Source: Octopus vulgaris
Taxonomy: Eukaryota
Assembly: GCA_951406725.2 (NCBI GenBank)
Contig: CATOCA020000001.1
Location: forward strand, 1,984,001 to 2,048,000
Direction of reading: 5' to 3'
Length of the DNA stretch: 64,000 bases
In this document: positions 28,091 through 64,000 of the stretch, piece by piece
Layout: each line of letters opens with the position of its first letter
Position numbering within the stretch: position 1 is the first letter of the stretch
Program-made: the position numbers and the translations under genes
Notes under the pieces: generated by a model
What the model saw: only the letters and a program-made list of their open reading frames with translations
What the model was told of the DNA's origin: nothing
Database searches by the model: none

Positions 28091-28250
28091 ATGAGTTCAT
28101 ATGACTGAGGTATCTGTACAAATCCTTTTTTCGAAAAGGTAACCCAATGATGCACAAATATATTCATACAGGAGAGAAAGCGTACCACTGTGATATCTGT
28201 GGTAAATCATTCTCTCAAAGTACTGACTTCAAAACACACAAACATATTCA
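28091..28250 (+). pseudogene. Degenerate 5' end of a C2H2 zinc-finger gene (founder of the array)
   Basis: A distinct first finger 'SYD*GICT/KSFFRKGNPMMHKYIHTGEK' has TGA at 28106 in place of the first Cys and a 1-nt shift near 28121. It keeps both His residues and runs directly into the array. Confidence 0.7.
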
Positions 28251-31200
28251 AACAGGGAGAAAGCGTACCACTGTGATATCTGTGGTAAATCATTCTCTCA
28301 AAGTACTGACTTCAAAAACACAAACATATTCAAACACTGTAATCTGTGGTAAATCATTCCTCAAAGTCTGCTTCAAAGAACAAACATATTCAAACAGGAG
28401 AAAGCGTACCACTGTGATATCTGTGGTAAATCATTCTCTCAAAGTACTGACTTCAAAAGACACAAACATATTCAAACAGGAGAGAAAGCGTACCACTGTG
28501 ATATCTGTGGTAAATCATTCTCTCAAAGTACTGACTTCAAAAGACACAAACATATTCAAACAGGAGAGAAAGCGTACCACTGTGATATCTGTGGTAAATC
28601 ATTCTCTCAAAGTACTGACTTCAAAAGACACAAACATATTCAAACAGGAGAGAAAGCGTACCACTGTGATATCTGTGGTAAATCATTCTCTCAAAGTACT
28701 GACTTCAAAAGACACAAACATATTCAAACAGGAGAGAAAGCGTACCACTGTGATATCTGTGGTAAATCATTCTCTCAAAGTACTGACTTCAAAAGACACA
28801 AACATATTCAAACAGGAGAGAAAGCGTACCACTGTGATATCTGTGGTAAATCATTCTCTCAAAGTACTGACTTCAAAAGACACAAACATATTCAAACAGG
28901 AGAGAAAGCGTACCACTGTGATATCTGTGGTAAATCATTCTCTCAAAGTACTGACTTCAAAAGACACAAACATATTCAAACAGGAGAGAAAGCGTACCAC
29001 TGTGATATCTGTGGTAAATCATTCTCTCAAAGTACTGACTTCAAAAGACACAAACATATTCAAACAGGAGAGAAAGCGTACCACTGTGATATCTGTGGTA
29101 AATCATTCTCTCAAAGTACTGACTTCAAAAGACACAAACATATTCAAACAGGAGAGAAAGCGTACCACTGTGATATCTGTGGTAAATCATTCTCTCAAAG
29201 TACTGACTTCAAAAGACACAAACATATTCAAACAGGAGAGAAAGCGTACCACTGTGATATCTGTGGTAAATCATTCTCTCAAAGTACTGACTTCAAAAGA
29301 CACAAACATATTCAAACAGGAGAGAAAGCGTACCACTGTGATATCTGTGGTAAATCATTCTCTCAAAGTACTGACTTCAAAAGACACAAACATATTCAAA
29401 CAGGGGAGAAAGCGTACCACTGTGATATCTGTGGTAAATCATTCTCTCAAAGTACTGACTTCAAAAGACACAAACATATTCAAACAGGAGAGAAAGCGTA
29501 CCACTGTGATATCTGTGGTAAATCATTCTCTCAAAGTACTGACTTCAAAAGACACAAACATATTCAAACAGGGAGAAAGCGTACCACTGTGATATCTGTG
29601 GTAAATCATTCTCTCAAAGTAGACTTCAAAAGACACAAACATATTCAAACAGGAGAGAAAGCGTACCACTGTGATATCTGTGGTAAATCATTCTCTCAAA
29701 GTACTGACTTCAAAAGACACAAACATATTCAAACAGGAGAGAAAGCGTACCACTGTGATATCTGTGGTAAATCATTCTCTCAAAGTACTGACTTCAAAAG
29801 ACACAAACATATTCAAACAGGAGAGAAAGCGTACCACTGTGATATCTGTGGTAAATCATTCTCTCAAAGTACTGACTTCAAAAGACACAAACATATTCAA
29901 ACAGGGGAGAAAGCGTACCACTGTGATATCTGTGGTAAATCATTCTCTCAAAGTACTGACTTCAAAAGACACAAACATATTCAAACAGGAGAGAAAGCGT
30001 ACCACTGTGATATCTGTGGTAAATCATTCTCTCAAAGTACTGACTTCAAAAGACACAAACATATTCAAACAGGAGAGAAAGCGTACCACTGTGATATCTG
30101 TGGTAAATCATTCTCTCAAAGTACTGACTTCAAAAGACACAAACATATTCAAACAGGAGAGAAAGCGTACCACTGTGATATCTGTGGTAAATCATTCTCT
30201 CAAAGTACTGACTTCAAAAGACACAAACATATTCAAACAGGAGAGAAAGCGTACCACTGTGATATCTGTGGTAAATCATTCTCTCAAAGTACTGACTTCA
30301 AAAGACACAAACATATTCAAACAGGAGAGAAAGCGTACCACTGTGATATCTGTGGTAAATCATTCTCTCAAAGTACTGACTTCAAAAGACACAAACATAT
30401 TCAAACAGTGGGGAAAGCGTAACACTGTGATATCTGTGGTAAATCATTCTCTCAAAGTACTGACTTCAAAAGACACAAACATATTCAAACAGGGGAGAAA
30501 GCGTACCACTGTGATATCTGTGGTAAATCATTCTCTCAAAGTACTGACTTCAAAAGACACAAACATATTCAAACAGGAGAGAAAGCGTACCACTGTGATA
30601 TCTGTGGTAAATCATTCTCTCAAAGTACTGACTTCAAAAGACACAAACATATTCAAACAGGAGAGAAAGCGTACCACTGTGATATCTGTGGTAAATCATT
30701 CTCTCAAAGTACTGACTTCAAAAGACACAAACATATTCAAAAAGGGGAGAAAGCGTACCACTGTGATATCTGTGGTAAATCATTCTCTCAAAGTACTGAC
30801 TTCAAAAGACACAAACATATTCAAACAGGAGAGAAAGCGTACCACTGTGATATCTGTGGTAAATCATTCTCTCAAAGAACTGACTTCAAAAGACACAAAC
30901 ATATTCAAACAGGAGAGAAAGCGTACCACTGTGATATCTGTGGTAAATCATTCTCTCAAAGTACTGACTTCAAAAGACACAAACATATTGAAACAGGGAA
31001 GAAAGCGTACCACTGTGATATCTGTTCTAAATCATTCTCTCAAAGTACTGACTTCAAAAGACACAAACATATTCAAACAGGAGAGAAAGCGTACCACTGT
31101 GATATCTGTGGTAAATCATTCTCTCAAAGTACTGACTTCAAAAGACACAAACATATTCAAACAGGAGAGAAAGCGTACCACTGTGATATCTGTGGTAAAT

Positions 31201-34200
31201 CATTCTCTCAAAAGTACTGACTTCAAAAGACACAAACATATTCAAACAGCAGAGAAAGCGTACCACTGTGATATCTGTGGTAAATCATTCTCTCAAAGTA
31301 CTGACTTCAAAAGACACAAACATATTCAAACAGGAGAGAAAGCGTACCACTGTGATATCTGTGGTAAATCATTCTCTCAAAGTACTGACTTCAAAAGACA
31401 CAAACATATTCAAACAGGGGAGAAAGCGTACCACTGTGATATCTGTGGTAAATCATTTTCTCAAACTACTGACTTCAAAAGACACAAACATATTCATACA
31501 AGGGAGGATGCGTACCACTGTGATATCTGTGGTAAATCATTCTCTCAAAGTACTGACTTCAAAAGACACAAACATATTCAAACAGGAGAGAAAGCGTACC
31601 ACTGTGATATGTGTGGTAAATCATTCTCTCAAAGTACTGACTTCAAAAGACACAAACATATTCAAACAGGAGAAAGCGTACCACTGTGATATCTGTGGTA
31701 AATCATTCTCTCACTGACTTCAAAAGATATTCAAAAGGAGAAAGCGTACCACTGTGATATCTGTGGTAAATCATTCTCTCAAAGTACTGACTTCAAAAGA
31801 CACAAACATATTCAAACAGACTTCAAAGACACAAACATATTCAAACAGGGAGAAAGCGTACCACTGTGATATCTGTGGTAAATCATTCTCTCAAACTACT
31901 GACTTCAAAAGACACAAACTTATTCATACAGGGGAGAAAGCGTACCACTGTGATATCTGTGGTAAATCATTCTCTCAAAGTACTGACTTCAAAAGACACA
32001 AACATATTCAAACAGGAGAGAAAGCGTACCACTGTGATATCTGTGGTAAATCATTCTCTCAAAGTACTGACTTCAAAAGACACAAACATATTCAAACAGG
32101 AGAGAAAGCGTAACACTGTGATATCTGTGGTAAATCATTCTCTCAAAGTACTGACTTCAAAAGACACAAACATATTCAAACAGGAGAGAAAGCGTACCAC
32201 TGTGATATCTGTGGTAAATCATTCTCTCAAAGTACTGACTTCAAAAGACACAAACATATTCAAACAGGGAGAAAGCGTACCACTGTGATATCTGTGGTAA
32301 ATCATTCTCTCAAAGTACTGACTTCAAAAGACACAAACATATTCAAACAGGAGAGAAAGCGTACCACTGTGATATCTGTGGTAAATCATTCTCTCAAAGT
32401 ACTGACTTCAAAAGACACAAACATATTCAAACAGGAGAGAAAGCGTACCACTGTGATATCTGTGGTAAATCATTCTCTCAAAGTACTGACTTCAAAAGAC
32501 ACAAACATATTCAAACAGGAGAGAAAGCGTACCACTGTGATATCTGTGGTAAATCATTCTCTCAAAGTACTGACTTCAAAAGACACAAACATATTCAAAC
32601 AGGAGAGAAAGCGTACCACTGTGATATCTGTGGTAAATCATTCTCTCAAAGTACTGACTTCAAAAGACACAAACATATTCAAACAGGAGAGAAAGCGTAC
32701 CACTGTGATATCTGTGGTAAATCATTCTCTCAAAGTACTGACTTCAAAAGACACAAACATATTCAAACAGGAGAGAAAGCGTACCACTGTGATATCTGTG
32801 GTAAATCATTCTCTCAAAGTACTGACTTCAAAAGACACAAACATATTCAAACAGGAGAGAAAGCGTACCACTGTGATATCTGTGGTAAATCATTCTCTCA
32901 AAGTACTGACTTCAAAAGACACAAACATATTCAAACAGGAGAGAAAGCGTACCACTGTGATATCTGTGGTAAATCATTCTCTCAAAGTACTGACTTCAAA
33001 AGACACAAACATATTCAAACAGGGAGAAAACGTACCACTGTGATATCTGTGGTAAATCATTCTCTCAAAGTACTGACTTCAAAAGACACAAACATATTCA
33101 AACAGGAGAGAAAGCGTACCACTGTGATATCTGTGGTAAATCATTCTCTCAAAGTACTGACTTCAAAACACACAAACATATTCAAACAGGAGAGAAAGCG
33201 TACCACTGTGATATCTGTGGTAAATCATTCTCTCAAAGTACTGACTTCAAAAGACACAAACATATTCAAACAGGAGAGAAAGCGTACCACTGTGATATCT
33301 GTGGTAAATCATTCTCTCAAAGTACTGACTTCAAAAGACACAAACATATTCAAACAGGAGAGAAAGCGTACCACTGTGATATCTGTGGTAAATCATTCTC
33401 TCAAAGTACTGACTTCAAAAGACACAAACATATTCAAACAGGAGAGAAAGCGTACCACTGTGATATCTGTGGTAAATCATTCTCTCAAAGTACTGACTTC
33501 AAAAGACACAAACATATTCAAACAGGGAGAAAGCGTACCACTGTGATATCTGTGGTAAATCATTCTCTCAAAGTACTGACTTCAAAAGACACAAACATAT
33601 TCAAACAGGAGAGAAAGCGTACCACTGTGATATCTGTGGTAAATCATTCTCTCAAAGTACTGACTTCAAAAGACACAAACATATTCAAACAGGAGAGAAA
33701 GCGTACCACTGTGATATCTGTGGTAAATCATTCTCTCAAAGTACTGACTTCAAAAGACACAAACATATTCAAACAGGAGAGAAAGCGTACCACTGTGATA
33801 TCTGTGGTAAATCATTCTCTCAAAGTACTGACTTCAAAAGACACAAACATATTCAAACAGGAGAGAAAGCGTACCACTGTGATATCTGTGGTAAATCATT
33901 CTCTCAAAGTACTGACTTCAAAAGACACAAACATATTCAAACAGGAGAGAAAGCGTACCACTGTGATATCTGTGGTAAATCATTCTCTCAAAGTACTGAC
34001 TTCAAAAGACACAAACATATTCAAACAGGAGAGAAAGCGTACCACTGTGATATCTGTGGTAAATCATTCTCTCAAAGTACTGACTTCAAAAGACACAAAC
34101 ATATTCAAACAGGAGAGAAAGCGTACCACTGTGATATCTGTGGTAAATCATTCTCTCAAAGTACTGACTTCAAAAGACACAAACATATTCAAACAGGAGA

Positions 34201-37200
34201 GAAAGCGTACCACTGTGATATCTGTGGTAAATCATTCTCTCAAAGTACTGACTTCAAAAGACACAAACATATTCAAACAGGGAGAAAGCGTACCACTGTG
34301 ATATCTGTGGTAAATCATTCTCTCAAAGTACTGACTTCAAAAGACACAAACATATTCAAACAGGGGAGAAAGCGTACCACTGTGATATCTGTGGTAAATC
34401 ATTCTCTCAAAGTACTGACTTCAAAAGACACAAACATATTCAAACAGGAGAGAAAGCGTACCACTGTGATATCTGTGGTAAATCATTCTCTCAAAGTACT
34501 GACTTCAAAAGACACAAACATATTCAAACAGGAGAGAAAGCGTACCACTGTGATATCTGTGGTAAATCATTCTCTCAAAGTACTGACTTCAAAAGACACA
34601 AACATATTCAAACAGGAGAGAAAGCGTACCACTGTGATATCTGTGGTAAATCATTCTCTCAAAGTACTGACTTCAAAAGACACAAACATATTCAAACAGG
34701 GGAGAAAGCGTACCACTGTGATATCTGTGGTAAATCATTCTCTCAAAGTACTGACTTCAAAAGACACAAACATATTCAAACAGGAGAGAAAGCGTACCAC
34801 TGTGATATCTGTGGTAAATCATTCTCTCAAAGTACTGACTTCAAAAGACACAAACATATTCAAACAGGGAGAAAGCGTACCACTGTGATATCTGTGGTAA
34901 ATCATTCTCTCAAAGTACTGACTTCAAAAGACACAAACATATTCAAACAGGAGAGAAAGCGTACCACTGTGATATCTGTGGTAAATCATTCTCTCAAAGT
35001 ACTGACTTCAAAAGACACAAACATATTCAAACAGGAGAGAAAGCGTACCACTGTGATATCTGTGGTAAATCATTCTCTCAAAGTACTGACTTCAAAAGAC
35101 ACAAACATATTCAAACAGGAGAGAAAGCGTACCACTGTGATATCTGTGGTAAATCATTCTCTCAAAGTACTGACTTCAAAAGACACAAACATATTCAAAC
35201 AGGAGAGAAAGCGTACCACTGTGATATCTGTGGTAAATCATTCTCTCAAAGTACTGACTTCAAAAGACACAAACATATTCAAACAGGAGAGAAAGCGTAC
35301 CACTGTGATATCTGTGGTAAATCATTCTCTCAAAGTACTGACTTCAAAAGACACAAACATATTCAAACAGGAGAGAAAGCGTACCACTGTGATATCTGTG
35401 GTAAATCATTCTCTCAAAGTACTGACTTCAAAAGACACAAACATATTCAAACAGGAGAGAAAGCGTACCACTGTGATATCTGTGGTAAATCATTCTCTCA
35501 AAGTACTGACTTCAAAAGACACAAACATATTCAAACAGGAGAGAAAGCGTACCACTGTGATATCTGTGGTAAATCATTCTCTCAAAGTACTGACTTCAAA
35601 AGACACAAACATATTCAAACAGGAGAGAAAGCGTACCACTGTGATATCTGTGGTAAATCATTCTCTCAAAGTACTGACTTCAAAAGACACAAACATATTC
35701 AAACAGGAGAGAAAGCGTACCACTGTGATATCTGTGGTAAATCATTCTCTCAAAGTACTGACTTCAAAAAGACACAAACATATTCAAACAGGGAGAAAGC
35801 GTACCACTGTGATATCTGTGGTAAATCATTCTCTCAAAGTACTGACTTCAAAAGACACAAACATATTCAAACAGGAGAGAAAGCGTACCACTGTGATATC
35901 TGTGGTAAATCATTCTCTCAAAGTACTGACTTCAAAAGACACAAACATATTCAAACAGGAGAGAAAGCGTACCACTGTGATATCTGTGGTAAATCATTCT
36001 CTCAAAGTACTGACTTCAAAAGACACAAACATATTCAAACAGGAGAGAAAGCGTACCACTGTGATATCTGTGGTAAATCATTCTCTCAAAGTACTGACTT
36101 CAAAAGACACAAACATATTCAAACAGGAGAGAAAGCGTACCACTGTGATATCTGTGGTAAATCATTCTCTCAAAGTACTGACTTCAAAAGACACAAACAT
36201 ATTCAAACAGGGGAGAAAGCGTACCACTGTGATATCTGTGGTAAATCATTCTCTCAAAGTACTGACTTCAAAAGACACAAACATATTCAAACAGGAGAGA
36301 AAGCGTACCACTGTGATATCTGTGGTAAATCATTCTCTCAAAGTACTGACTTCAAAAGACACAAACATATTCAAACAGGAGAGAAAGCGTACCACTGTGA
36401 TATCTGTGGTAAATCATTCTCTCAAAGTACTGACTTCAAAAGACACAAACATATTCAAACAGGAGAGAAAGCGTACCACTGTGATATCTGTGGTAAATCA
36501 TTCTCTCAAAGTACTGACTTCAAAAGACACAAACATATTCAAACAGGAGAGAAAGCGTACCACTGTGATATCTGTGGTAAATCATTCTCTCAAAGTACTG
36601 ACTTCAAAAGACACAAACATATTCAAACAGGAGAGAAAGCGTACCACTGTGATATCTGTGGTAAATCATTCTCTCAAAGTACTGACTTCAAAAGACACAA
36701 ACATATTCAAACAGGAGAGAAAGCGTACCACTGTGATATCTGTGGTAAATCATTCTCTCAAAGTACTGACTTCAAAAGACACAAACATATTCAAACAGGA
36801 GAGAAAGCGTACCACTGTGATATCTGTGGTAAATCATTCTCTCAAAGTACTGACTTCAAAAGACACAAACATATTCAAACAGGGAGAAAGCGTACCACTG
36901 TGATATCTGTGGTAAATCATTCTCTCAAAGTACTGACTTCAAAAGACACAAACATATTCAAACAGGAGAGAAAGCGTACCACTGTGATATCTGTGGTAAA
37001 TCATTCTCTCAAAGTACTGACTTCAAAAGACACAAACATATTCAAACAGGAGAGAAAGCGTACCACTGTGATATCTGTGGTAAATCATTCTCTCAAAGTA
37101 CTGACTTCAAAAGACACAAACATATTCAAACAGGAGAGAAAGCGTACCACTGTGATATCTGTGGTAAATCATTCTCTCAAAGTACTGACTTCAAAAGACA

Positions 37201-40200
37201 CAAACATATTCAAACAGGAGAGAAAGCGTACCACTGTGATATCTGTGGTAAATCATTCTCTCAAAGTACTGACTTCAAAAGACACAAACATATTCAAACA
37301 GGAGAGAAAGCGTACCACTGTGATATCTGTGGTAAATCATTCTCTCAAAGTACTGACTTCAAAAGACACAAACATATTCAAACAGGAGAGAAAGCGTACC
37401 ACTGTGATATCTGTGGTAAATCATTCTCTCAAAGTACTGACTTCAAAAGACACAAACATATTCAAACAGGAGAGAAAGCGTACCACTGTGATATCTGTGG
37501 TAAATCATTCTCTCAAAGTACTGACTTCAAAAGACACAAACATATTCAAACAGGAGAGAAAGCGTACCACTGTGATATCTGTGGTAAATCATTCTCTCAA
37601 AGTACTGACTTCAAAAGACACAAACATATTCAAACAGGAGAGAAAGCGTACCACTGTGATATCTGTGGTAAATCATTCTCTCAAAGTACTGACTTCAAAA
37701 GACACAAACATATTCAAACAGGGGAGAAAGCGTACCACTGTGATATCTGTGGTAAATCATTCTCTCAAAGTACTGACTTCAAAAGACACAAACATATTCA
37801 AACAGGAGAGAAAGCGTACCACTGTGATATCTGTGGTAAATCATTCTCTCAAAGTACTGACTTCAAAAGACACAAACATATTCAAACAGGAGAGAAAGCG
37901 TACCACTGTGATATCTGTGGTAAATCATTCTCTCAAAGTACTGACTTCAAAAGACACAAACATATTCAAACAGGAGAGAAAGCGTACCACTGTGATATCT
38001 GTGGTAAATCATTCTCTCAAAGTACTGACTTCAAAAGACACAAACATATTCAAACAGGAGAGAAAGCGTACCACTGTGATATCTGTGGTAAATCATTCTC
38101 TCAAAGTACTGACTTCAAAAGACACAAACATATTCAAACAGGAGAGAAAGCGTACCACTGTGATATCTGTGGTAAATCATTCTCTCAAAGTACTGACTTC
38201 AAAAGACACAAACATATTCAAACAGGAGAGAAAGCGTACCACTGTGATATCTGTGGTAAATCATTCTCTCAAAGTACTGACTTCAAAAGACACAAACATA
38301 TTCAAACAGGAGAGAAAGCGTACCACTGTGATATCTGTGGTAAATCATTCTCTCAAAGTACTGACTTCAAAAGACACAAACATATTCAAACAGGAGAGAA
38401 AGCGTACCACTGTGATATCTGTGGTAAATCATTCTCTCAAAGTACTGACTTCAAAAGACACAAACATATTCAAACAGGAGAGAAAGCGTACCACTGTGAT
38501 ATCTGTGGTAAATCATTCTCTCAAAGTACTGACTTCAAAAGACACAAACATATTCAAACAGGAGAGAAAGCGTACCACTGTGATATCTGTGGTAAATCAT
38601 TCTCTCAAAGTACTGACTTCAAAAGACACAAACATATTCAAACAGGAGAGAAAGCGTACCACTGTGATATCTGTGGTAAATCATTCTCTCAAAGTACTGA
38701 CTTCAAAAACACAAACATATTCAAACAGGAGAGAAAGCGTACCACTGTGATATCTGTGGTAAATCATTCTCTCAAAGTACTGACTTCAAAAGACACAAAC
38801 ATATTCAAACAGGAGAGAAAGCGTACCACTGTGATATCTGTGGTAAATCATTCTCTCAAAGTACTGACTTCAAAAGACACAAACATATTCAAACAGGAGA
38901 GAAAGCGTACCACTGTGATATCTGTGGTAAATCATTCTCTCAAAGTACTGACTTCAAAAGACACAAACATATTCAAACAGGGGAGAAAGCGTACCACTGT
39001 GATATCTGTGGTAAATCATTCTCTCAAAGTACTGACTTCAAAAGACACAAACATATTCAAACAGGAGAGAAAGCGTACCACTGTGATATCTGTGGTAAAT
39101 CATTCTCTCAAAGTACTGACTTCAAAAGACACAAACATATTCAAACAGGAGAGAAAGCGTACCACTGTGATATCTGTGGTAAATCATTCTCTCAAAGTAC
39201 TGACTTCAAAAGACACAAACATATTCAAACAGGAGAGAAAGCGTACCACTGTGATATCTGTGGTAAATCATTCTCTCAAAGTACTGACTTCAAAAGACAC
39301 AAACATATTCAAACAGGAGAGAAAGCGTACCACTGTGATATCTGTGGTAAATCATTCTCTCAAAGTACTGACTTCAAAAGACACAAACATATTCAAACAG
39401 GAGAGAAAGCGTACCACTGTGATATCTGTGGTAAATCATTCTCTCAAAGTACTGACTTCAAAAGACACAAACATATTCAAACAGGAGAGAAAGCGTACCA
39501 CTGTGATATCTGTGGTAAATCATTCTCTCAAAGTACTGACTTCAAAAGACACAAACATATTCAAACAGGAGAGAAAGCGTACCACTGTGATATCTGTGGT
39601 AAATCATTCTCTCAAAGTACTGACTTCAAAAGACACAAACATATTCAAACAGGGAGAAAGCGTACCACTGTGATATCTGTGGTAAATCATTCTCTCAAAG
39701 TACTGACTTCAAAAGACACAAACATATTCAAACAGGAGAGAAAGCGTACCACTGTGATATCTGTGGTAAATCATTCTCTCAAAGTACTGACTTCAAAAGA
39801 CACAAACATATTCAAACAGGAGAGAAAGCGTACCACTGTGATATCTGTGGTAAATCATTCTCTCAAAGTACTGACTTCAAAAGACACAAACATATTCAAA
39901 CAGGAGAGAAAGCGTACCACTGTGATATCTGTGGTAAATCATTCTCTCAAAGTACTGACTTCAAAAGACACAAACATATTCAAACAGGAGAGAAAGCGTA
40001 CCACTGTGATATCTGTGGTAAATCATTCTCTCAAAGTACTGACTTCAAAAGACACAAACATATTCAAACAGGAGAGAAAGCGTACCACTGTGATATCTGT
40101 GGTAAATCATTCTCTCAAAGTACTGACTTCAAAAGACACAAACATATTCAAACAGGAGAGAAAGCGTACCACTGTGATATCTGTGGTAAATCATTCTCTC

Positions 40201-49200: not shown

Positions 49201-52200
49201 ACATATTCAAACAGGAGAGAAAGCGTACCACTGTGATATCTGTGGTAAATCATTCTCTCAAAGTACTGACTTCAAAAGACACAAACATATTCAAACAGGG
49301 AGAAAGCGTACCACTGTGATATCTGTGGTAAATCATTCTCTCAAAGTACTGACTTCAAAAGACACAAACATATTCAAACAGGAGAGAAAGCGTACCACTG
49401 TGATATCTGTGGTAAATCATTCTCTCAAAGTACTGACTTCAAAAGACACAAACATATTCAAACAGGAGAGAAAGCGTACCACTGTGATATCTGTGGTAAA
49501 TCATTCTCTCAAAGTACTGACTTCAAAAGACACAAACATATTCAAACAGGGGAGAAAGCAGTACCACTGTGATATCTGTGGTAAATCATTCTCTCAAAGT
49601 ACTGACTTCAAAAGACACAAACATATTCAAACAGGAGAGAAAGCGTACCACTGTGATATCTGTGGTAAATCATTCTCTCAAAGTACTGACTTCAAAAGAC
49701 ACAAACATATTCAAACAGGAGAGAAAGCGTACCACTGTGATATCTGTGGTAAAACATTCTCTCAAAGTACTGACTTCAAAAGACACAAACATATTCAAAC
49801 AAGAAAGCGTACCACTGTGATATCTGTGGTAAATCATTCTCTCAAAGTACTGACTTCAAAAGACCCAAACATATTCAAACAGGGGAGAAAGCGTACCACT
49901 GTGATATCTGTGGTAAATCATTCTCTCAAAAAAACTGACTTCAAAAGACACAAACATATTCAAACAGGCGAGAAAGCGTACCACTGTGATATCTGTGGTA
50001 AATCATTCTCTCAAAGTACTGACTTCAAAAGACACAAACATATTCAAACAGGAGAGAAAGCGTACCACTGTGATATCTGTGGTAAATCATTCTCTCAAAG
50101 TACTGACTTCAAAAGACACAAACATATTCAAACAGGAGAGAAAGCGTACCACTGTGATATCTGTGGTAAATCATTCTCTCAAAGTACTGACTTCAAAAGT
50201 CACAATCATATTCAAACAGGAGAGAAAGCGTACCACTGTGATATCTGTGGTAAATCATTCTCTCAAAGTACTGACTTCAAAAGACACAAACATATTCAAA
50301 CAGGAGAGAAAGCGTACCACTGTGATATCTGTGGTAAATCATTCTCTCAAAGTACTGACTTCAAAAGTACACAAACATATTCAAACAGGGGAGAAAGCGA
50401 CTACCACTGTGATATCTGTGGTAAATCATTCTCTCAAAGTACTGACTTCAAAGGACACAAACATATTCAAACAGGAGAGAAAGCGTACTACTGTGATATC
50501 TGTGGTAAATAATTCTCTCAAAGTACTGACTTCAAAAGACACAAATATATTCAAACAGGAGAGAATGCGTACCTCTGTGATATCTGTGGTAAAACATTCT
50601 TTCAAAGTACTGACTTCAAAAGACACAAACATATTCAAACAGGGGAGAAAGCGTACCACTGTGATATCTGTGGTAAATCATTCTCTCAAAGTACTGACTT
50701 CAAAAGACACAAACATATTGAAACAGGGGAGAAAGCGTACCACTGTGATATCTGTGGTAATTCATTCTCTCAAAGAACTGACTTCAAAAGACACAAACAT
50801 ATTCAAACAGGCGAGAAAGCGTACCACTGTGATATCTGTGGTAAATCATTCTCTCAAAGTACTGACTTCAAAAGACACAAACATATTCAAACAGGAGAGA
50901 AAGCGTACCACTGTGATATCTGTGGTAAATCATACTCTCAAAGTACTGACTTCAACAGACACAAACATATTCAAACAGGGGAGAAAGCTTACCACTGTGA
51001 TATCTGTGGTATATCATTCTCTCAAAGTACTGACTTCAAAAGTCACAAACATATTCAAACAGGAGAGAAAGCGTACAACTGTGATATCTGTGGTAAATCA
51101 TTCTCTCAAAGTACTGCCTTCAAAAGACACAAACATATTCAAACAGGAGAGAAAGCGTTCCACTGTGATATCTGTGGTAAATCATTCTCTCAAAGTACTG
51201 ACTTCAAAAGACACAAACATATTCAAACAGGGGAGAATGCGTACCACTGTGATATCTGTGGTAAATCATTCTCTCAAAGTACTGACTTCAAAAGACACAA
51301 ACATATTCAAACAGGAGAGAAAGCGTACCACTGTGATATCTGTGGTAAATCATTCTCTCAATGTACTTACTTCAAAAGACACAAACATATGCAAACAGGA
51401 GAGAAAGCGTACCACTGTGATATCTGTGGTAAATCATTCTCTCAAAGTACTGACTTCAAAAGACACAAACATATTCAAACAGGGAGAAAGCGTTACACTG
51501 TGATATCTGTGGTAAATCATTCTCTCAAAGTACTGACTTCAAAAGACACAAACATATTCAAACAGGAGAGAAAGCGTACCACTGTGATATCTGTGGTAAA
51601 TCATTCTCTCAAAGTACTGACTTCAAAAGACACAAACATATTCAAACAGGGAGAAAGCGTACCACTGTGATATCTGTGGTAAATCATTCTCTCAAAGTAC
51701 TGACTTCAAAAGACACAAACATATTCAAACAGGAGAGAAAGCGTACCACTGTGATATCTGTGGTAAATCATTCTCTCAAAGTACTGACTTCAAAAGACAC
51801 AAACATATTCAAACAGGAGAGAAAGCGTACCACTGTGATATCTGTGGTAAATCATTCTCTCAAAGTACTGACTTCAAAAGACACAAACATATTCAAACAG
51901 GAGAGAAAGCGTACCACTGTGATATCTGTGGTAAATCATTCTCTCAAAGTACTGACTTCAAAAGACACAAACATATTCAAACAGGAGAGAAAGCGTACCA
52001 CTGTGATATCTGTGGTAAATCATTCTCTCAATGTACTTACTTCAAAAGACACAAACATATGCAAACAGGAGAGAAAGCATACCACTGTGATATCTGTGGT
52101 AAATCATTCTCTAAAAGTACTGACTTCAAAAGACACAAGAAGCATATTCAAACAGGAGAGAAAGCGTACCACTGTGATATCTGTGGTAAATCATTCTCTC

Positions 52201-55200
52201 AAAGTACTGACTTCAAAAGACACAAGCATATTCAAACAGGAGAGAAAGCGTACCACTGTGATATCTGTGGTAAATCATTCTCTCAAAAAGTACTGACTTC
52301 AAAAGACACAAACATATTCAAACAGGGGAGAAAGCGTACCACTGTGATATCTGTGGTAAATCATTCTCTCAAAGTACTGACTTCAAAAGACACAAACATA
52401 TTCAAACAGGAGAGAAAGCGTACCACTGTGATATCTGTGGTAAATCATTCTCTCAAAGTACTGACTTCAAAAGACACAAACATATTCAAACAGGAGAGAA
52501 AGCGTACCACTGTGATATCTGTGGTAAATCATTCTCTCAAAGTACTGACTTCAAAAGACACAAACATATTCAAACAGGAGAGAAAGCGTACCACTGTGAT
52601 ATCTGTGGTAAATAATTCTCTCAAAGTACTGACTTCAAAAGACACAAACATATTCAAACAGGAGAGAAAGCGTACTACTGTGATATCTGTGGTAAATCAT
52701 TCTCTCAAAGTACTGACTTCAAAAGACACAAACATATTCAAACAGGAGAGAAAGCGTACCACTGTGATATCTGTGGTAGATCATTCTCTCAAAGTACTGA
52801 CTTCAAAAGACACAAACATATTCAAACAGGAGAGAAAGCGTACCACTGTGATATCTGTGGTAAAACATTCTCTCAAAGTACTGACTTCAAAAGACACAAA
52901 CATATTCAAACAGGAGAGAAAGCGTACCACTGTGATATCTGTGGTAAATCATTCTCTCAAAGTACTGACTTCAAAAGACACAAACATATTCAAACAGGAG
53001 AGAAAGCGTACCACTGTGATATCTGTTAAATCATTCTCTCAAAGTACTGACTTCAAAAGACACAAACATATTCAAACAGAGAGAAAGCGTACCACTGTGA
53101 TATCTGTGGTAAATCATTCTCTCAAAGTACTGACTTCAAAAGACACAAACATATTCAAACAGGAGAGAAAGCGTACCACTGTGATATCTGTGGTAAATCA
53201 TTCTCTCAAAGTACTGACTTCAAAAGACACAAACATATTCAAACAGGGGAGAAAGCGTACCACTGTGATATCTGTGGTAAATCATTCTCTCAAAGTACTG
53301 ACTTCAAAAGACACAAACATATTCAAGCAGGAGAGAAAGCGTACCACTGTGATATCTGTGGTAAATCATTCCCTCAAAGTCCTGACTTCAAAAGACACAA
53401 ACATATTCAAACAGGAGAGAAAGCGTACCACTGTGATATCTGTGGTAAATCATTCTCTCAAAGTACTGACTTCAAAAGACACAAACATATTCAAACAGGA
53501 GAGAAAGCGTACCACTGTGATATCTGTGGTAAATCATTCTCTCAAAGTACTGACTTCAAAAGACACAAACATATTCATTCAAAAAAGGAGAGAAAGCGTA
53601 CCACTGTGATATCTGTGGTAAATCATTCTCTCAAAGTACTGACTTCAAAAGACACAAACATATTCAAACAGGGGATAAAGCGTACCACTGTGATATCTGT
53701 GGTAAATCATTCTCTCAAAGTACTGACTTCAAAAGACACAAACATATTCAAACAGGGGAGAAAGCGTACCACTGTGATATCTGTGGTAAATCATTCTCTC
53801 AAAGTACTGACTTCAAAAGACACAAACATATTCAAACAGGAGAGAAAGCGTACCACTGTGATATCTGTGGTAAATCATTCTCTCAAAGTACTGACTTCAA
53901 AAGACACAAACATATTCAAACAGGGGAGAAATCGTACCACTGTGATATCTGTGGTAAATCATTCTCTCAAAGTACTGACTTCAAAAGACACAAACATATT
54001 CAAACAGGAGAGAAATCGTACCACTGTGATATCTGTGGTAAATCATTCTCTCAAAGTACTGACTTCAAAAGACACAAACATATTCAAACAGGAGAGAAAG
54101 CGTACCACTGTGATATCTGTGGTAAATCATTCTCTCAAAGTACTGACTTCAAAAGACACAAACATATTCAAACAGGAGAGAAAGCGTACCACTGTGATAT
54201 CTGTGGTAAATCATTCTCTCAAAGTACTGATTTCAAAAGACAGAAACATATACAAACAGGGGTGAAAGCGTACCACTGTGATATCTGTGGTAAATCATTC
54301 TCTCAAAGTACTGACTTCAAAAGACACAAACATATTCAAACAGTGGAGAAAGCGTACCACTGTGATATCTGTGTTAAATCATTCTCTCAAAGTACTGACT
54401 TCACAAGACACAAACATATTCAAACAGGAGAGAAAGCGTACCACTGTGATATCTGTGGTAAATCATTCTCTCAAAGTACTGACTTCAAAAGACACAAACA
54501 TATTCAAACAGGAGAGAAAGCGTACCACTGTGATATCTATGGTAAATCATTCTCTCAAAGTACTTACTTCAAAAGACACAAACATATTCAAACAGGGGAG
54601 AAAGCGTACCACTGTGATATCTGTGGTAAATCATTCTCTCAAAGTACTGACTTCAAAAGACACAAACATATTCAAACAGGAGAGAAAGCGTACCACTGTG
54701 ATATCTGTGGTAAATCATTCTCTCAAAGTACTGACTTCAAAAGACACAAACATATTCAAACAGGAGAGAAAGCGTACCACTGTGATATCTGTGGTAAATC
54801 ATTCTCTCAAAGTACTGACTTCAAAAGACACAAACATATTCAAACAGGAGAGAAAGCGTACCACTGTGATATCTGTGGTAAATCATTCTCTCAAAGTACT
54901 GACTTCAAAAGACACAAACATATTCAAACAGGAGAGAAAGCGTACCACTGTGATATCTGTGGTAAATCATTCTCTCAAAGTACTGACTTCAAAAGACACA
55001 AACATATTCAAACAGGAGAGAAAGCGTACCACTGTGATATCTGTGGTAAATCATTCTCTCAAAGTACTGACTTCAAAAGACACAAACATATTCACACAGG
55101 GGAGAAAGCGTACCACTGTGATGTCTGTGGTAAATCATTCTCTCAAAGTACTGACTTCAAAAGACACAAACATATTCAAACAGGAGAAAGCGTACCACTG

Positions 55201-58200
55201 TGATGTCTGTGGTAAATCATTCTCTCAAAGTACTGACTTCAAAAGACACAAACATATTCAAACAGGGGAGAAAGCGTACCACTGTGATATCTGTGGTAAA
55301 TCATTCTCTCAATGTACTGACTTCAAAAGACACAAACAAGTGCAAAAAGTGGAGAAAGCGTACCACTGTGATATCTGTGGTAAATCATTCTCTCAAAGTA
55401 CTGACTTCAAAAGACACAAACAAGTGCAAAAAGTGGAGAAAGCGTACCACTGTGATATCTGTGGTAAATCATTCTCTCAAAGTACTGACTTCAAAAGACA
55501 CAAACAAGTTCAAAAAGTTGAGAAAGCGTACCACTGTGATATCTGTGGTAAATCATTCTCTCAAAGTACTGACTTCAAAAGACACAAACAAGTGCAAAAA
55601 GTGGAGAAAGCGTACCACTGTGATATCTGTGGTAAATCATTCTCTCAAAGTACTGACTTCAAAAGACACAAACAAGTGCAAAAAGTGGAGAAAGCGTACC
55701 ACTGTGATATCTGTGGTAAATCATTCTCTCAAAGTACTGACTTCAAAAGACACAAACATATTCAAACAGGAGAGAAAGCGTACCACTGTGATATCTGTGG
55801 TAAATCATTCTCTCAAAGTACTGACTTCAAAAGACACAAACATATTCAAACAGGAGAGAAAGCGTACCACTGTGATATCTGTGGTAAATCATTCTCTCAA
55901 AGTACTGACTTCAAAAGACACAAACAAGTGCAAAAAGTGGAGAAAGCGTACCACTGTGATATCTGTGGTAAATCATTCTCTCAAAGTACTGACTTCAAAA
56001 GACACAAACATATTCAAACAGGAGAGAAAGCGTACCACTGTGATATCTGTGGTAAATCATTCTCTCAAAGTACTGACTTCAAAAGACACAAACATATTCA
56101 AACAGGAGAGAAAGCGTACCACTGTGATATCTGTGGTAAATCATTCTCTCAAAGTAATGACTTCAAAAGACACAAACATATTCAAACAGGAGAGAAAGCG
56201 TACCACTGTGATATCTGTGGTAAATCATTCTCTCAAAGTAAAGACTTAAAAGACACAAACATATTCAAACAGGAGATAAAGCGTACCACTGTGATATCTG
56301 TGGTAAATCATTCTCTCAAAGTAATGACTTCAAAAGACACAAACATATTCAAACAGGAGATAAAGCGTACCACTGTGATATCTGTGGTAAATCATTCTCT
56401 CAAAGTACTGACTTCAAAAGAAACAAACATATTCAAACAGGAGAGAAAGCGTACCACTGTGATATCTGTGGTAAATCATTCTCTCAAAGTACTGACTTCA
56501 AAAGACACAAACATATTCAAACAGGAGAGAAAGCGTACCACTGTGATATCTGTGGTAAATCATTCTCTCAAAGTACTGACTTCAAAAGAAACAAACATAT
56601 TCAAACAGGAGAGAAAGCGTACCACTGTGATATCTGTGGTAAATCATTCTCTCAAAGTACTGACTTCAAAAGACACAAACATATTCAAACAGGAGAGAAA
56701 GCGTACCACTGTGATATCTGTGGTAAATCATTCTCTCAAAGTACTGACTTCAAAAGACACAAACATATTCAAACAGGGAGAAAGCGTACCACTGTGATAT
56801 CTGTGGTAAATCATTCTCTCAAAGTACTGACTTCAAAAGACACAAACATATTCAAACAGGAGAGAAAGCGTACCACTGTGATATCTGTGGTAAATCATTC
56901 TCTCAAAGTACTGACTTCAAAAGACACAAACATATTCAAACAGGAGAGAAAGCGTACCACTGTGATATCTGTGGTAAATCATTCTCTCAAAGTACTGACT
57001 TCAAAAGACACAAACATATTCAAACAGGAGAGAAAGCGTACCACTGTGATATCTGTGGTAAATCATTCTCTCAAAGTACTGACTTCAAAAAAAACAAACA
57101 TATTCAAACAGGAGAGAAAGCGTACCACTGTGATATCTGTGGTAAAAAATTCTCTCAAAGTACTGACTTCAAAAGACACAAACATATTCAAACAGGAGAG
57201 AAAGCGTACCACTGTGATATCTGTGGTAAATAATCCTCTCAAAGTACTGACTTCAAAAGAAACAAACATATTCAAACAGGAGAGAAAGCGTACCACTGTG
57301 ATATCTGTGGTAAATCATTCTCTCAAAGTACTGACTTCAAAAGAAACAAACATATTCAAACAGGAGAGAAAGCGTACCACTGTGATATCTGTGGTAAATC
57401 ATTCTCTCAAAGTACTGACTTCAAAAGACACAAACATATTCAAACAGGAGAGAAAGCGTACCACTGAGATATCTGTGGTAAATCATTCTCTCAAAGTACT
57501 GACTTCAAAAGACACAAACATATTCAAACAGGAGAGAAAGCGTACCACTGTGATATCTGTGGTAAATCATTCTCTCAAAGTACTGACTTCAAAAGACACA
57601 AACATATTCAAACAGGAGAGAAAGCGTACCACTGTGATATCTGTGGTAAATCATTCTCTCAAAGTACTGACTTCAAAAGACACAAACATATTCAAACAGG
57701 AGAGAAAGCGTACCACTGTGATATCTGTGGTAAATCATTCTCTCAAAGTACTGATTCAAAAGACACAAACATATTCAAACAGGAGAGAAAGCGTACCACT
57801 GTGATATCTGTGGTAAATCATTCTCTCAAAGTACTGACTTCAAAAGACACAACCATATTCAAACAGTGGAGAAAGCGTACCACTGTGATATTTGTGGTAA
57901 ATCATTCTCTCAAAGTACTGACTTCAAAAGACACAAACATATTCAAACAGGAGAGAAAGCGTACCATTGGATTATCTGTGGTAAATCAATCCCTCAAAGT
58001 ACTGACTTCAAAAGACACAAACAAATTCAAAGTGGAGAGTAAGCGTACTTCTGTGATATCTGTGGTAAATCATTCTCTCAAAGTACTGACTTCAAAAGAC
58101 ACAAACATATTCAAACAGGAGAGAAAGCGTACCACTGTGCTATCTGTGGAAACTCATTCTCTAAAATTACTGACTTCAAAAGACACAAACATATTCAAAC

Positions 58201-61200
58201 AGGGGAGAAAGCGTACCACTGTGATATCTGTGGTAAATCATTCTCTCAAAGTACTGACTTCAAAATACACAAACATATTCAAACAGTGGAGAAAGCGTAC
58301 CACTGTGATATCTGTGGTAAATCATTCTCTCAAAGTACTGACTTCAAAAGACACAAACATATTCAAACAGGGGAGAAAGCGTACCACTGTGATATCTGTG
58401 GTAAATCATTCTCTCAAAGTACTGAATTCAAAAGACACAAACATATTCAAACAGGGAGAAAGCGTACCACTGTGATATCTGTGGTAAATCATTCTCTCAA
58501 AGTACTGAATTCAAAAGACACAAACATATTCAAACATGAAAGAAAGCGTACCACTGTGATATCTGTGGTAAATCATTCTCTCAAAGTACTGACTTCAAAA
58601 GATACAAACATATTCAAACAGGAGAGAAGACGTACCACTGTGGTATCTGTGGTAAATCATTCTCTCAAAGTACTGACTTCAAAAGACACAAACATATTCA
58701 AACAGGAGAGAAAGCATACCACTGTGATATCTGTGGTAAATCATTCTCTCAAAGTACTGACTTCAAAAGAAACAAACATATTCAAACAGGAGAGAAAGCG
58801 TACCACTGTGATATCTGTGGTAAATCATTCTCTCAAAGTACTGACTTCAAAAGACACAAACATATTCAAACAGGAGAGAAAGCGTACCACTGTGATATCT
58901 GTGGTAAATCATTCTCTCAAACTACTGACTTCAAAAGACACAAACATATTCAAACAGGAGAGAAAGCGTACCACTGTGATATCTGTGGTAAATCATTCTC
59001 TCAAAGTACTGACTTCAAAAGACACAAACATATTCAAACAGGAGAGAAAGTGTACCACTGTGATATCTGTGGTAAATCATTCTCTCAAAGTACTGACTTC
59101 AAAAGACACAAACATATTCAAACAGGAGATAAAGCGTACCACTGTGATATCTGTGGTAAATCATTCTCTCAAAGTACTGACTTCAAAAGACACAAACATA
59201 TTCAAACAGGATAGAAAGCGTACCACTGTGATATCTGTGGTAAATCATTCTCTCAAAGTACTGACTTCAAAAGACACAAACATATTCAAAAAGGAGAGAA
59301 AGCGTCCCACTGTGATATCTGTGGTAAATCATTCTCTCAAAGTACTGACTTCAAAAGACACAAACATATTCAAACAGGAGAGAAAGCGTACCACTGCGAT
59401 ATCTGTGGTAAATCATTCTCTCAAAGTACTGACTTCAAAAGACACAAACATATTCAAACAGGGGAGAAAGCGTAACACTGTGATATCTGTGGTAAATCAT
59501 TCTCTCAAAGTACTGACGTCAAAAGACACAAACATATTCAAACAAGAGAGAAAGCGTACCACTGTGATATCTGTGGTAAATCATTCTCTCAAAGTACTGA
59601 CTTCAAAAGACACAAACATATTCAAACAGGAGAGAAAGCGTACCACTGTGATATCTGTGGTAAATCATTCTCTCAAAGTACTGACTTCAAAAGACACAAA
59701 CAAATTCAAACAGGAAAGAAAGCGTACCGCTGTGATATCTGTGGTAAATCATTCTCTCAAAGTACTGACTTCAAAAGACACAAACATATTCAAACAGGAG
59801 AGAAAGCGTACCACTGTGATATCTGTGGTAAATCATTCTCTCAAAGTACTGACTTCAAAAGGCACAAACATATTCAAACAGGGGAGAAAGCGTTCCACTG
59901 TGATATCTGTGGTAAATCATTCTTTCAAAGTACTGACTTCAAAAGACACAAACATATTGAAACAGGGGAGAAAGCATACCACTGTGATATCTGTGGTAAA
60001 TCATTCTCTCAAAGTACTGACTTCAAAAGACACAAACATATTCAAACAGGAGAGAAACCGTACCACTGTGATATCTGTGGTAAATCATTCTCTCAAAGTA
60101 CTGACTTCAAAAGACGCAAACATATTCAAACAGAGGAGAAAGCGTACCACTGTGATATCTGTGGTAAATCATTCTCTCAAAGTTCTGACTTCAAAAGACA
60201 CAAACATATTCAAACAGGAGAGAAAGCGTACCACTGTGATATCTGTGGTAAATCATTCTCTCAAACTACTGACTTCAAAAGACACAAACATATTCAAACA
60301 GGAGAGAAAGCATACCACTGTGAAATCTGTGGTAAATCATTCTCTCAAAGTACTGACTTCAAAAGACACAAACATTTTCAAACAGGAGTGAAAGTGTACC
60401 ACTGTGATATCTGTGGTAAATCATTCTCTCAAAGTACTGAATTCAAAAGACACAAACATATTCAAACAGGAGATAAAGCGTCCCACTGTGATATCTGTGG
60501 TAAATCATTCTCTCAAAGTACTGACTTCAAAAGACACAAACATATTCAAACAGGAGAGAAAGCGTACCACTGTGATATCTGTGGTAAATCATTCTCTCAA
60601 AGTACTGACGTCAAAAGACACAAACATATTCAAACAAGAGAGAAAGCGTACCACTGTGATATCTGTGGTAATTCATTCTCTCAAAGTACTGACTTCAAAA
60701 GACACAAACATATTCAAACAGGGGAGAAAGGGTACCACTGTGACATCTGTGGTAAATCATTCTCTCAAAGTACTGACTTCAAAAGACACAAACAAATTCA
60801 AACAGGAAAGAAAGCGTACCTCTGTGATATCTGTGGTAAATCATTCTCTCAAAGTACTGACTTCAAAAGACACAAACATATTCAAACAAGAGAGAAAGCG
60901 TACCACTGTGATATCTGTGGTAAATCATTCTCTCAAAGTACTGACTTCAAAAGACACAAACATATTCAAACAAGAGAGAAAGCGTACCACTGTGATATCT
61001 GTGGTAAATCATTCTCTCAAAGTACTGACTTCAAAAGGCACAAACATATTCAACCAGAGGAGAAAGCGTACCACTGTGATATCTGTGGTAAATCATTCTC
61101 TCAAAGTACTGACTTCAAAAGACACAAACATATTCAAACAGGAGAGAAAGCGTACCACTGTGATATCTGTGGTAAATCATTCTCTCAAAGTACTGACTTC

Positions 61201-64000
61201 AAAAGATACAAACATATTCAAACAGGGGAGAATGCGTACCACTGTGATATCTGTGGTAAATCATTCTCTCAAAGTACTGACTTCAAAAGACACAAACATA
61301 TTCAAACAGGGGAGAAAGCGTTCCACTGTGATATCTGTGGTAAATCATTCTTTCAAAGTACTGACTTCCAAAGACACAAACATATTCAAACAGGGGAGAA
61401 AGCGTACCACTGTGATATCTGTGGTAAATCATTCTCTCAAAGTACTGACTTCAAAAGACACAAACATATTCAAACAGGAGAGAAAGCGTACCACTGTGAT
61501 ATCTGTGGTAAATCATTCTCTCAAAGTACTGACTTCAAAAGACACAAACATATTCAACCAGGGGAGAAAGCGTACCACTGTGATATCTGTGGTAAATCAT
61601 TCTCTCAAAGTACTGAATTCAAAAGACACAAACATATTCAAACAGGAGAGAAAGCGTACCACTGTGATATCTGTGGTAAATCATTCTCTCAAAGTACTGA
61701 CTTCAAAAGATACAAACATATTCAAACAGGGGAGAAAGCGTACCACTGTGATATCTGTGGTAAATCATTCTCTCAATGTACTGACTTCAAAAGACACAAA
61801 CATATTCAAACAGGAGAGAAAGCGTACCACTGTGATATCTGTGGTAAATCATTCTCTCAAAGTACTGACTTCAAAAGACACAAACATATTCAAACAGGGG
61901 AGAAAGGGTACCACTGTGACATCTGTGGTAAATCATTCTCTCAAAGTACTGACTTCAAAAGACACAAACAAATTCAAACAGGAAAGAAAGCGTACCACTG
62001 TGATATCTGTGGTAAATCATTCTCTCAAAGTACTGACTTCAAAAGACACAAACATAGTCAAAAAGGAGAGAAAGCGTACCACTGTGATATCTGTGGTAAA
62101 TCATTCTCTCAAAGTACTGACTTCAAAAGGCACAAACATATTCAAACAGGGGAGAAAGCGTTCCACTGTGATATCTGTGGTAAATCATTCTTTCAATGTA
62201 CTGACTTCAAAAGACACAAACATATTCAAACAGGGGAGAAAGCATACCACTGTGATATCTGTGGTAAATCATTCTCTCAAAGTACTGACTTCAAAAGACA
62301 CAAACATATTCAAACAGGAGAGAAAGCGTACCACTGTGATATCTGTGGTAAATCATTCTCTCAAAGTACTGACTTCAAAAGACACAAACATATTCAAACA
62401 GAGGAGAAAGCGTACCACTGTGATATCTGTGGTAAATCATTCTCTCAAAGTACTGACTTCAAAAGACACAAACATATTCAAACAGGAGAGAAAGCGTACC
62501 ACTGTGATATCTGTGGTAAATCATTCTCTCAAACTACTGACTTCAAAAGACACAAACATATTCAAACAGGAGAGAAAGCATACCACTGTGATATCTGTGG
62601 TAAATCATTCTCTCAAAGTACTGACTTCAAAAGACACAAACATTTTCAAACAGGAGTGAAAGTGTACCACTGTGACATCTGTGGTAAATCATTCTCTCAA
62701 AGTACTGAATTCAAAAGACACAAACATATTCAAACAGGAGATAAAGCGTACCACTGTGATATCTGTGGTAAATCATTCTCTCAAAGTACTGACTTCAAAA
62801 GACACAAACATATTCAAACAGGAATGAAAGCGTACCACTGTGATATCTGTGGTAAATCATTCTCTCAAAGTACTGACTTCAAAAGACACAAACATATTCA
62901 AAAAGGAGAGAAAGCGTCCCAGTGATATCTGTGGTAAATCATTCTCTCAAAGTACTGACTTCAAAAGACACAAACATATTCAAACAGGAGAGAAAGCGTA
63001 CCACTGTGATATCTGTGGTAAATCATACTCTCAAAGTACTTACTTCAAAAGAGACAAACATATTCAAACAGGGGAGAAAGCGTAACACTGTGATATCTGT
63101 GGTAAATCATTCTCTCAAAGTACTGACGTCAAAAGACACAAACATATTCAAACAAGAGAGAAAGCGTACCACTGTGATATCTGTGGTAATTCATCCTCTC
63201 AAAGTACTGACTTCAAAAGACACAAACATATTCAAACAGGGGAGAAAGGGTACCACTGAGACATCTGTGGTAAATCATTCTCTCAAAGTACTGACTTCAA
63301 AAGACACAAACAATTCATAAAGTAGAGAAAGCGTACCACTGTGATATCAGTGGTAAATCATTCTCTCAAAGTACTGACTTCAAAAGACACAAACATATTC
63401 AAACAGGGGAGAAAGCGTACCACTGTGATATCTGTGGTAAATCATTCTCTCAAAGTACTGACTTCAAAAGACACAAACATATTCATAAAGTAGAGAAAGC
63501 GTACCACTGTGATATCTGTGGTAAATCATTCTCTCAAAGTACTGACTTCAAAAGACACAAACATATTCATAAAGTAGAGAAAGCGTACCACTGTGATATC
63601 TGTGGTAAATCATTCTCTCAAAGTACTGACTTCAAAAGACACAAACATATTCAAACAGGAGAGAAAGCGTACCACTGTGATATCTGTGGAAACTCATTCT
63701 CTCAAAAGTACTGACTTCAAAAGACACAAACATATTCAAACAGGGGAGAAAGCGTACCACTGTTATATCTGTGGTAAATCATTCTCTCAAAGTACTGACT
63801 TCAAAAGACACAAACATATTCAAACAGGAGAGAAAGCGTACCACTGTTATATCTGTGGTAAATCATTCTCTCAAAGTACTGACTTCAAAAGACACAAACA
63901 TATTCAAACAGGGGAGAAAGCGTACCACTGTGATATCTGTGGTAAATCATTCTCTCAAAGTACTGACTTCAAAAGACACAAACATATTCAAACAGGGGAG
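28168..64000 (+). repeat. 84-bp tandem array (about 425 units, open-ended) derived from a single C2H2 zinc finger: [28 protein letters not shown]
   Basis: Consensus acaggagagaaagcgtaccactgtgatatctgtggtaaatcattctctcaaagtactgacttcaaaagacacaaacatattcaa repeated head-to-tail. Many 1-nt indels and several in-frame stops break the zinc-finger frame. Confidence 0.99.

What the first reader, a model, noticed from the sequence alone, without database searches (positions are those of the whole stretch)
28168..64000. The amplified finger lacks its fourth zinc ligand (HxxxH to HKHIQ)
Seen: consensus is C-x2-C-x12-H-K-H-I-Q, so the terminal His codon is CAA. The core Leu is Phe and the linker is TGEKAY rather than TGEKPY. 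The founder finger at 28147-28167 (HKYIH) keeps the His, and I noticed only about eight units with His there (near 31495, 31925, 47699, 53577, 55093, 63316, 63484, 63568). Inference: a broken finger was amplified, which favours selection-free DNA-level expansion. Alternatively, the extra His residues (HKH, YHC) could give non-canonical or three-ligand metal binding, making any product a Cys/His-rich metal-binding polymer rather than a transcription factor.
Basis: partly seen in the sequence, partly recalled or inferred. Interest (0 to 1): 0.7.

Follow-up and report, generated by a model that had tools for sequence, protein, structure and literature searches.

The report
Octopus zinc finger turned satellite DNA
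In this octopus genome, the last zinc finger of a small gene family, which already lacked its fourth zinc-binding histidine, is repeated about 1,550 times in several long arrays; these mutate as if no protein depended on them, so they are likely non-coding satellite DNA and not a new metal-binding protein.

Summary
Observation confirmed. Of 427 units in the window, 416 have CAA (Gln) at the fourth ligand and 7 have His. Independent sequencing contigs carry the same Gln junction.

The 'founder finger' is only the back half of a broken first finger. The unit comes from the terminal finger of a paralogue clade: eight unexpanded copies already end in the same Gln finger, so His-to-Gln predates the expansion.

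The array runs 46 kb. Five assembled pieces on two scaffolds hold 1,552 inner units. Their variants look neutral (102 missense, 19 silent, 6 stops, against 99.9, 19.9, 7.2 expected), and stops and frameshifts were copied along. The window's frame breaks after one finger.

The 'extra' His residues are ordinary for the family and unconserved. But 'broken finger' is unproven: published CCHX fingers bind zinc and fold, and the parent Gln finger shows 5 silent against 1 missense change.

Verdict: likely a neutral, gene-born satellite with a traceable origin. One paralogue keeps an 82-finger open frame; expression is untested. The scan earlier noted a ~259-finger array in another octopus genome.

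The parts
25428..28105 (+). 5' flank duplicated with the paralogue family (about 98% identical to loci A and B); only short ATG frames (33 aa or less) between 27691 and 28146
28106..28167 (+). Broken first finger: Cys1 codon is TGA, 1-base deletion near 28123.
   Evidence: alignment to His-terminal paralogues with an intact first finger
28168..28188 (+). First linker TGEKAYH; matches the linker of every array unit and is the inferred donor of it
28147..29592 (+). Only ATG frame into the array: 481 aa, one finger in frame, then a 1-base deletion near 28257 and out-of-frame repeat
28189..64000 (+). 84-bp CCHQ finger array, 427 units in the window; continues to about C31:2058375 and ends mid-unit at a (GAT)n tract
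31949..49063 (+). Near-homogeneous core (0.08% substitutions per site); most of its 1-base deletions sit at one G-run position and may be sequencing errors
49064..64000 (+). Diverged zone (1.9% per site) with duplicated multi-variant blocks, stops and frameshifts
47639..47722 (+). Example of a His unit: differs from the common unit only at codon 21 (CAC)

Best explanation
This is a long tandem array of one 84-bp zinc-finger unit lacking the fourth histidine, likely a non-coding satellite that grew by unequal recombination inside the finger exon of a duplicated octopus C2H2 gene. Steps: (1) shown: a paralogue clade lost its ancestral start codon and first finger, and all its members end in the same CCHQ finger. 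(2) Shown as sequence, inferred as event: the unit joins that terminal finger to the gene's first linker, and the two share short identical stretches at the join, so a crossover there would close a one-finger unit. (3) Inferred: repeated unequal exchange and conversion amplified and homogenised the unit, and segmental duplication spread it to several loci. (4) Shown: array variants are neutral, and stops and frameshifts were copied. The Gln was inherited, neither cause nor product of the expansion. An isolated unit would probably still bind zinc through Cys, Cys, His (inferred from published CCHX fingers), but the window's locus cannot make the polymer.
For: Eight unexpanded paralogues end in the Gln finger, including 10- and 16-finger open frames on C4 and C1. 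A 3'-flank tree puts these eight and the C8 array end in one clade (support 100/98; 29 rows: 10 Q, 19 of the 31 His-terminal matches; bootstrap not fully settled). The unit differs from locus A's terminal finger at 1 of the first 68 bases, and its last 18 bases equal the first linker. The C8 array piece ends in the native tail and 3' flank. Neutrality: distinct alleles 102 N, 19 S, 6 stop against 99.9, 19.9, 7.2 expected; C1, C4, H17 changes 22 against 19.3; base-contact positions 26 against 23.2. Alleles seen in 2 or more units: 62, 16, 6 against 65.3, 12.7, 5.9. A three-change frameshift signature recurs in 12 units of array D and 1 of W, and stop signatures recur in C8 and D. 136 of 1,552 inner units are out of frame. 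The ATG frame breaks after 1 finger in W and 5 in D. An unrelated 94-bp satellite of over 29 kb lies 60 kb past the array end and matches a dispersed repeat. Loss of the last ligand is commoner in terminal fingers: 18 of 184, against 10 of 973 internal, among fetched proteins.
Against: Locus B keeps an open frame of 2,311 aa (1 CCHH and 81 CCHQ fingers) from the same Met. Half of the frame breaks (68 single deletions at one G-run position) may be long-read errors, so true frames may be longer. Sequencing errors would also look neutral, and selection on one unit among hundreds is weak for missense changes. The parent terminal finger shows 5 S against 1 N (p = 0.002, one of five windows tested), so the seed was not plainly dead. 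Expression was not tested with raw reads. The order of recombination events is not shown.
Confidence: 0.75

Rival explanations
1. One locus (type B) is a live gene for a giant polymer of three-ligand zinc fingers that binds metal or hydrolyses substrates; the other arrays are its decayed copies.
For: B has an 82-finger open frame. The C8 piece ends with 20 in-frame units and the native stop, so start and end pieces exist. CCHX fingers bind zinc and ZNF711-Z7 is weakly hydrolytic (PMC11030341 passages). One RNA-guess run holds an exact unit junction.
Against: No constraint on the three ligands or against stops in the arrays. B1 is also the most homogeneous piece (0.08% per site), which alone explains a long frame. 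The clade lacks the ancestral start. No predicted protein with tandem Gln fingers among the hits of three capped searches.
Confidence: 0.07
2. Loss of the His was a filter: only a finger with weak DNA binding could run away, because polymers of intact fingers would be harmful and purged.
For: All five array pieces carry Gln (1,530 of 1,552 inner units), although His-terminal paralogues are more numerous (31 against 12 pattern matches).
Against: All pieces share one unit and one origin, so this is a single event. W is out of frame after one finger, so no polymer is exposed to selection. CCHX fingers can bind DNA (second-hand via PMC11030341). I did not survey the genome for His-intact finger arrays.
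Confidence: 0.08
3. The array works as DNA or RNA: a heterochromatin block, or a source of small RNAs that match the many ordinary zinc-finger transcripts.
For: A 27-mer of the unit occurs exactly 4,064 times genome-wide, against 1,418 matches of a Gln-specific 20-mer, so well over half of those sites lie outside the arrays.
Against: No small-RNA or chromatin data were examined. No part of the unit is selectively conserved. The match is expected from common ancestry.
Confidence: 0.06
4. The array, or most of its length and loci, is an assembly artefact.
For: Loci B, D and E adjoin N gaps and the C8 piece starts at a scaffold tip. D and B share one 3' junction with 98% identical flanks and could be haplotype duplicates.
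Against: Duplicated multi-variant blocks. An exact junction contig in an independent run. 20 of 24 listed runs hold part of the query stretch.
Confidence: 0.04

Closest known systems
PRDM9 zinc-finger coding minisatellite (PMC8925151, PMC8600002: search listing and abstract starts only)
   Same: Head-to-tail C2H2 finger units homogenised as a minisatellite; 84-bp period (PRDM9 period recalled).
   Different: Hundreds of units rather than a short array (PRDM9 size recalled). No fourth His, frame not kept, no excess change at base-contact positions, and no effector frame in the exon.
Natural and engineered CCHX three-ligand fingers: ZNF711-Z7, BKLF-F3 mutants, truncated CP-1 (PMC11030341 abstract and passages; Simpson 2003 not held, seen only as cited there)
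   Same: C-x2-C-x12-H with the last ligand replaced.
   Different: Those are single fingers with measured zinc binding. Here X is Gln, binding is untested, and the finger is a gene's terminal finger copied about 1,550 times.
Coleoid cephalopod C2H2 gene expansion (PMC9068888, PMC12513265, PMC10547256; passages)
   Same: The parents are ordinary members of the family; P0005, labelled Octopus vulgaris, contains locus A's frame.
   Different: The passages read describe expansion in gene number. They do not mention a single finger amplified into satellite-length arrays.
Satellites born from genes or dispersed repeats (general class, recalled)
   Same: Long homogeneous core, diverged zones with higher-order blocks, neutral decay, abrupt ends at simple repeats.
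   Different: The seed is a zinc-finger coding unit, and unexpanded parents plus native 5' and 3' ends survive, so the birth can be traced.

Membership tests
Classical C2H2 finger (PF00096) | C-x2-C-x12-H, first three ligands | tested here: met
   406 of 427 window units keep C, C, H
Classical C2H2 finger (PF00096) | Fourth ligand His at H-x3-H | tested here: not met
   7 of 427 units have His. The Pfam match of a Gln unit passes the cut-off (26.7 against 25.2 bits) but covers profile 1-20 of 23; a His unit covers 1-23
Classical C2H2 finger (PF00096) | Core Phe and Leu; TGEKP linker | tested here: not met
   Phe8 is kept, Leu14 is Phe, Pro26 is Ala
Classical C2H2 finger (PF00096) | Beta-beta-alpha fold | tested here: inconclusive
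   Single-sequence AlphaFold2 model of a natural Q-H-Q triple: pLDDT 68.8, pTM 0.30, the same short helix in all three units. Foldseek hits are C2H2 arrays with TM about 0.26
CCHX three-ligand finger | Last ligand replaced, first three kept | tested here: met
CCHX three-ligand finger | Zinc-dependent folding and metal affinity | not testable with these tools
   Needs peptide spectroscopy
PRDM9-type coding minisatellite | Homogenised tandem finger units | tested here: met
PRDM9-type coding minisatellite | Reading frame maintained through the array | tested here: not met
   Stops at the neutral rate, copied frameshifts; B's 82-unit frame is the longest
PRDM9-type coding minisatellite | Diversity concentrated at base-contact residues | tested here: not met
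   Q10, T12, D13, R16: 26 changes against 23.2 expected
PRDM9-type coding minisatellite | Effector domain (KRAB, PR/SET) upstream | tested here: inconclusive
   None in frame within the exon; upstream spliced exons were not sought
Satellite DNA | Head-to-tail array of tens of kb with higher-order blocks | tested here: met
   46, 40, 26 and 19 kb; repeated variant signatures
Satellite DNA | No coding constraint | tested here: met
Satellite DNA | Heterochromatic, not translated | not testable with these tools
   Only contig-level run data

The most novel reading that the evidence does not exclude
A sister locus (B, possibly continuous with the C8 piece) is expressed as a natural polymer of 81 to several hundred identical three-ligand CCHQ zinc fingers, each with an open zinc site: a metal-buffering or hydrolytic chain born by runaway amplification of a conserved terminal CCHQ finger.
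Probability: 0.07. Interest if true: 0.85.

Novelty: new variant of a known kind. Interest (0 to 1): 0.42.

Why it matters
It is a clear record of satellite DNA being born from a transcription-factor exon: parents, seed finger, likely recombination join, native ends and several daughter arrays all survive in one genome, so amplification and homogenisation can be studied directly. It also warns that finger counts in cephalopods can be inflated: about 1,550 units pass the Pfam cut-off without being working genes. The parent CCHQ finger is a candidate natural three-ligand finger that is cheap to test.

Tried and rejected
Extra His residues as replacement ligands: rejected, because they are family-typical and unconserved. 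That His19 lies off the zinc face of the helix is recalled, not measured.

His units as ancestral relics: rejected. They carry private variants and fall into a few late events; A63 changes (7 T, 2 C) are at the high end of other A sites but within range.

Expression from run contigs: in the Gln-specific bin the summed depth was X1 203,807, X6 482,432, X16 0, X18 49, against 15,516 to 301,715 in a bin shared with ordinary fingers. The tool says such depths cannot rank genes or show copy number, and RNA status is a guess, so I draw no conclusion.

Presence in other species: runs coded as organisms C and D gave depth over the array at 90% likeness, but ordinary fingers can contribute. Among 184 proteins, only P0005 holds HKHIQ; best identity was 56%. 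These searches scored only part of the candidates, so absence is weak.

Structure prediction and fold search did not discriminate Gln from His. I first read the array's 3' junction as an ankyrin-gene intron; those exons were found only upstream of B, so I call it a (GAT)n tract.

Literature: searches listed no paper describing this array; subscription papers and supplements were not searched.
Full report
Observation. The window is G000:C31:1984001-2048000. From 28189 it is an 84-bp array of 427 units, 250 of them identical. The fourth-ligand codon is CAA in 416, His in 7, GAA in 3 and deleted in 1. Phe for Leu and Ala for Pro are confirmed against 170 canonical fingers from fetched paralogues. 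An independent run holds an exact 102-nt contig across the Gln codon and the next linker. Protein P0005, labelled Octopus vulgaris, contains the frame of a neighbouring paralogue.

Extent. The array (W) continues past the window to 46 kb and ends mid-unit at a (GAT)n tract. A Gln-specific 20-mer has 1,418 exact matches in the genome and 0 for the reversed control. Further pieces are D (C31:4.03 Mb, 26 kb), B (C31:6.01 Mb, 19 kb, split by a gap) and the tip of C8 (40 kb); locus E has a gap just after its start. Across five pieces, 1,530 of 1,552 inner units have CAA and 10 have His. B and D share a 3' junction and 98% identical flanks, so they may be duplicates or haplotypes.

Origin. A search with the 5' flank recovered the family. 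Eight unexpanded paralogues on C1, C4, C28 and C31 end in the same Gln finger, most followed by a short tail and stop; two are open frames of 10 and 16 fingers. A tree of 3' flanks (29 rows; 19 of the 31 His-terminal pattern matches were fetched) groups these eight and the C8 array end at 100/98. A tenth Gln row is a fingerless remnant that falls elsewhere, and the bootstrap had not fully settled. His-to-Gln therefore arose once, in a terminal finger, before the arrays. The unit matches locus A's terminal finger at 67 of the first 68 bases and then continues with the first linker. I infer a crossover between the terminal tail and the first linker, followed by unequal exchange. The C8 piece still ends in the native tail and 3' flank, so the expansion is internal to the exon.

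Selection on the arrays. I left out units with indels or more than six changes, columns 66-72, and the first two and last unit of each piece. Distinct alleles were 102 missense, 19 silent and 6 stop, against 99.9, 19.9 and 7.2 expected from the mutation spectrum. The three remaining ligands (22 against 19.3), the two 'extra' His (14 against 12.8) and the base-contact positions (26 against 23.2) show no constraint. Alleles seen in at least two units give 62, 16 and 6 against 65.3, 12.7 and 5.9. A frameshift signature recurs in 12 units of D and 1 of W, and stop signatures recur in duplicated blocks, so these breaks are real. 136 of 1,552 units are out of frame, but 68 are one deletion at a G run and may be read errors. 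From the shared Met, W keeps 1 finger in frame, D 5 and B 82.

Is the finger broken? Not shown. PMC11030341 (abstract and passages) reports a natural three-ligand finger that folds, binds zinc and hydrolyses an ester. It cites work in which CCHX fingers keep affinity and DNA binding; I could not open Simpson 2003. In the eight unexpanded paralogues the Gln finger has 5 silent and 1 missense change (p = 0.002), while the two preceding fingers show 2:5 and 3:7; the arrays show 25:118 over the same codons (Fisher p = 0.0013). This is a hint only. Five windows were tested, numbers are small, the signal is partly a silent excess, and three of the five silent changes lie in loci with broken or truncated frames. 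The AlphaFold2 model and fold search did not separate Gln from His units. YHC and HKH are ordinary in the family, so the alternative-ligand idea has no support.

Mechanism and rivals. The most likely reading (0.75) is a neutral satellite grown inside a duplicated finger exon, seeded by a terminal CCHQ finger that may itself bind zinc. A second, unrelated satellite 60 kb downstream, which matches a dispersed repeat, fits a region prone to tandem amplification. Rivals are a translated CCHQ polymer at B (0.07), His loss as a filter (0.08), a DNA- or RNA-level role (0.06) and an assembly artefact (0.04). Run contigs could not settle expression.

Comparison and novelty. It grows like a PRDM9-type finger minisatellite but fails the frame and contact-diversity tests, and it fails the fourth-ligand test for a classical finger. 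Searches listed no description of it; subscription papers and supplements were not seen. The scan's own note e1-9519102 reports about 259 identical fingers in another octopus genome (unchecked). I rate it a new variant of a known kind, interest 0.42.

Noticed in passing
G000:C31:2118519 to beyond 2148000 (L018-L020): A 94-bp satellite of at least 29 kb; its unit has 36 BLAST hits outside the satellite in fetched DNA. It resembles an octopus SINE (recalled, not tested).
   Followed up: partly
G000:C31:2096000-2112522 (L015-L017): Public gene model P0005 splices locus A's four fingers to three 3' exons of a DCLK-like kinase; real fusion or model artefact is unknown.
   Followed up: partly
G000:C8:1-39810 (L051-L054): The array piece starts at the scaffold tip and ends in the family's native 3' flank; it may be the misplaced other half of a gapped C31 locus.
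   Followed up: partly
G000:C31:4058235, 5991425 and about 2058375: Arrays D, B and W all end at nearly the same phase of the unit, running into (TA)n (D, B) or (GAT)n (W) simple repeats.
   Followed up: partly
G000:C31:6037200-6039399 (L028, minus strand): Two ankyrin-repeat-like exons separated by a long (GAT)n tract upstream of locus B; motif recognised from recall.
   Followed up: no
window 10131-15928: A unit of about 2.1 kb repeated nearly three times at 94-97% identity, with a further copy at C31:2078914.
   Followed up: no
window 24574-25024 and 25412-26074 (minus strand): A 68-bp minisatellite, and a 221-codon open stretch that looks like a LINE reverse-transcriptase fragment (recalled).
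   Followed up: no
L036:1318-1343 versus 1578-1811: Run X6 shows a Gln-bin to flank depth ratio about 16 times that of X1; copy-number difference, enrichment and transcription cannot be told apart from contigs.
   Followed up: no
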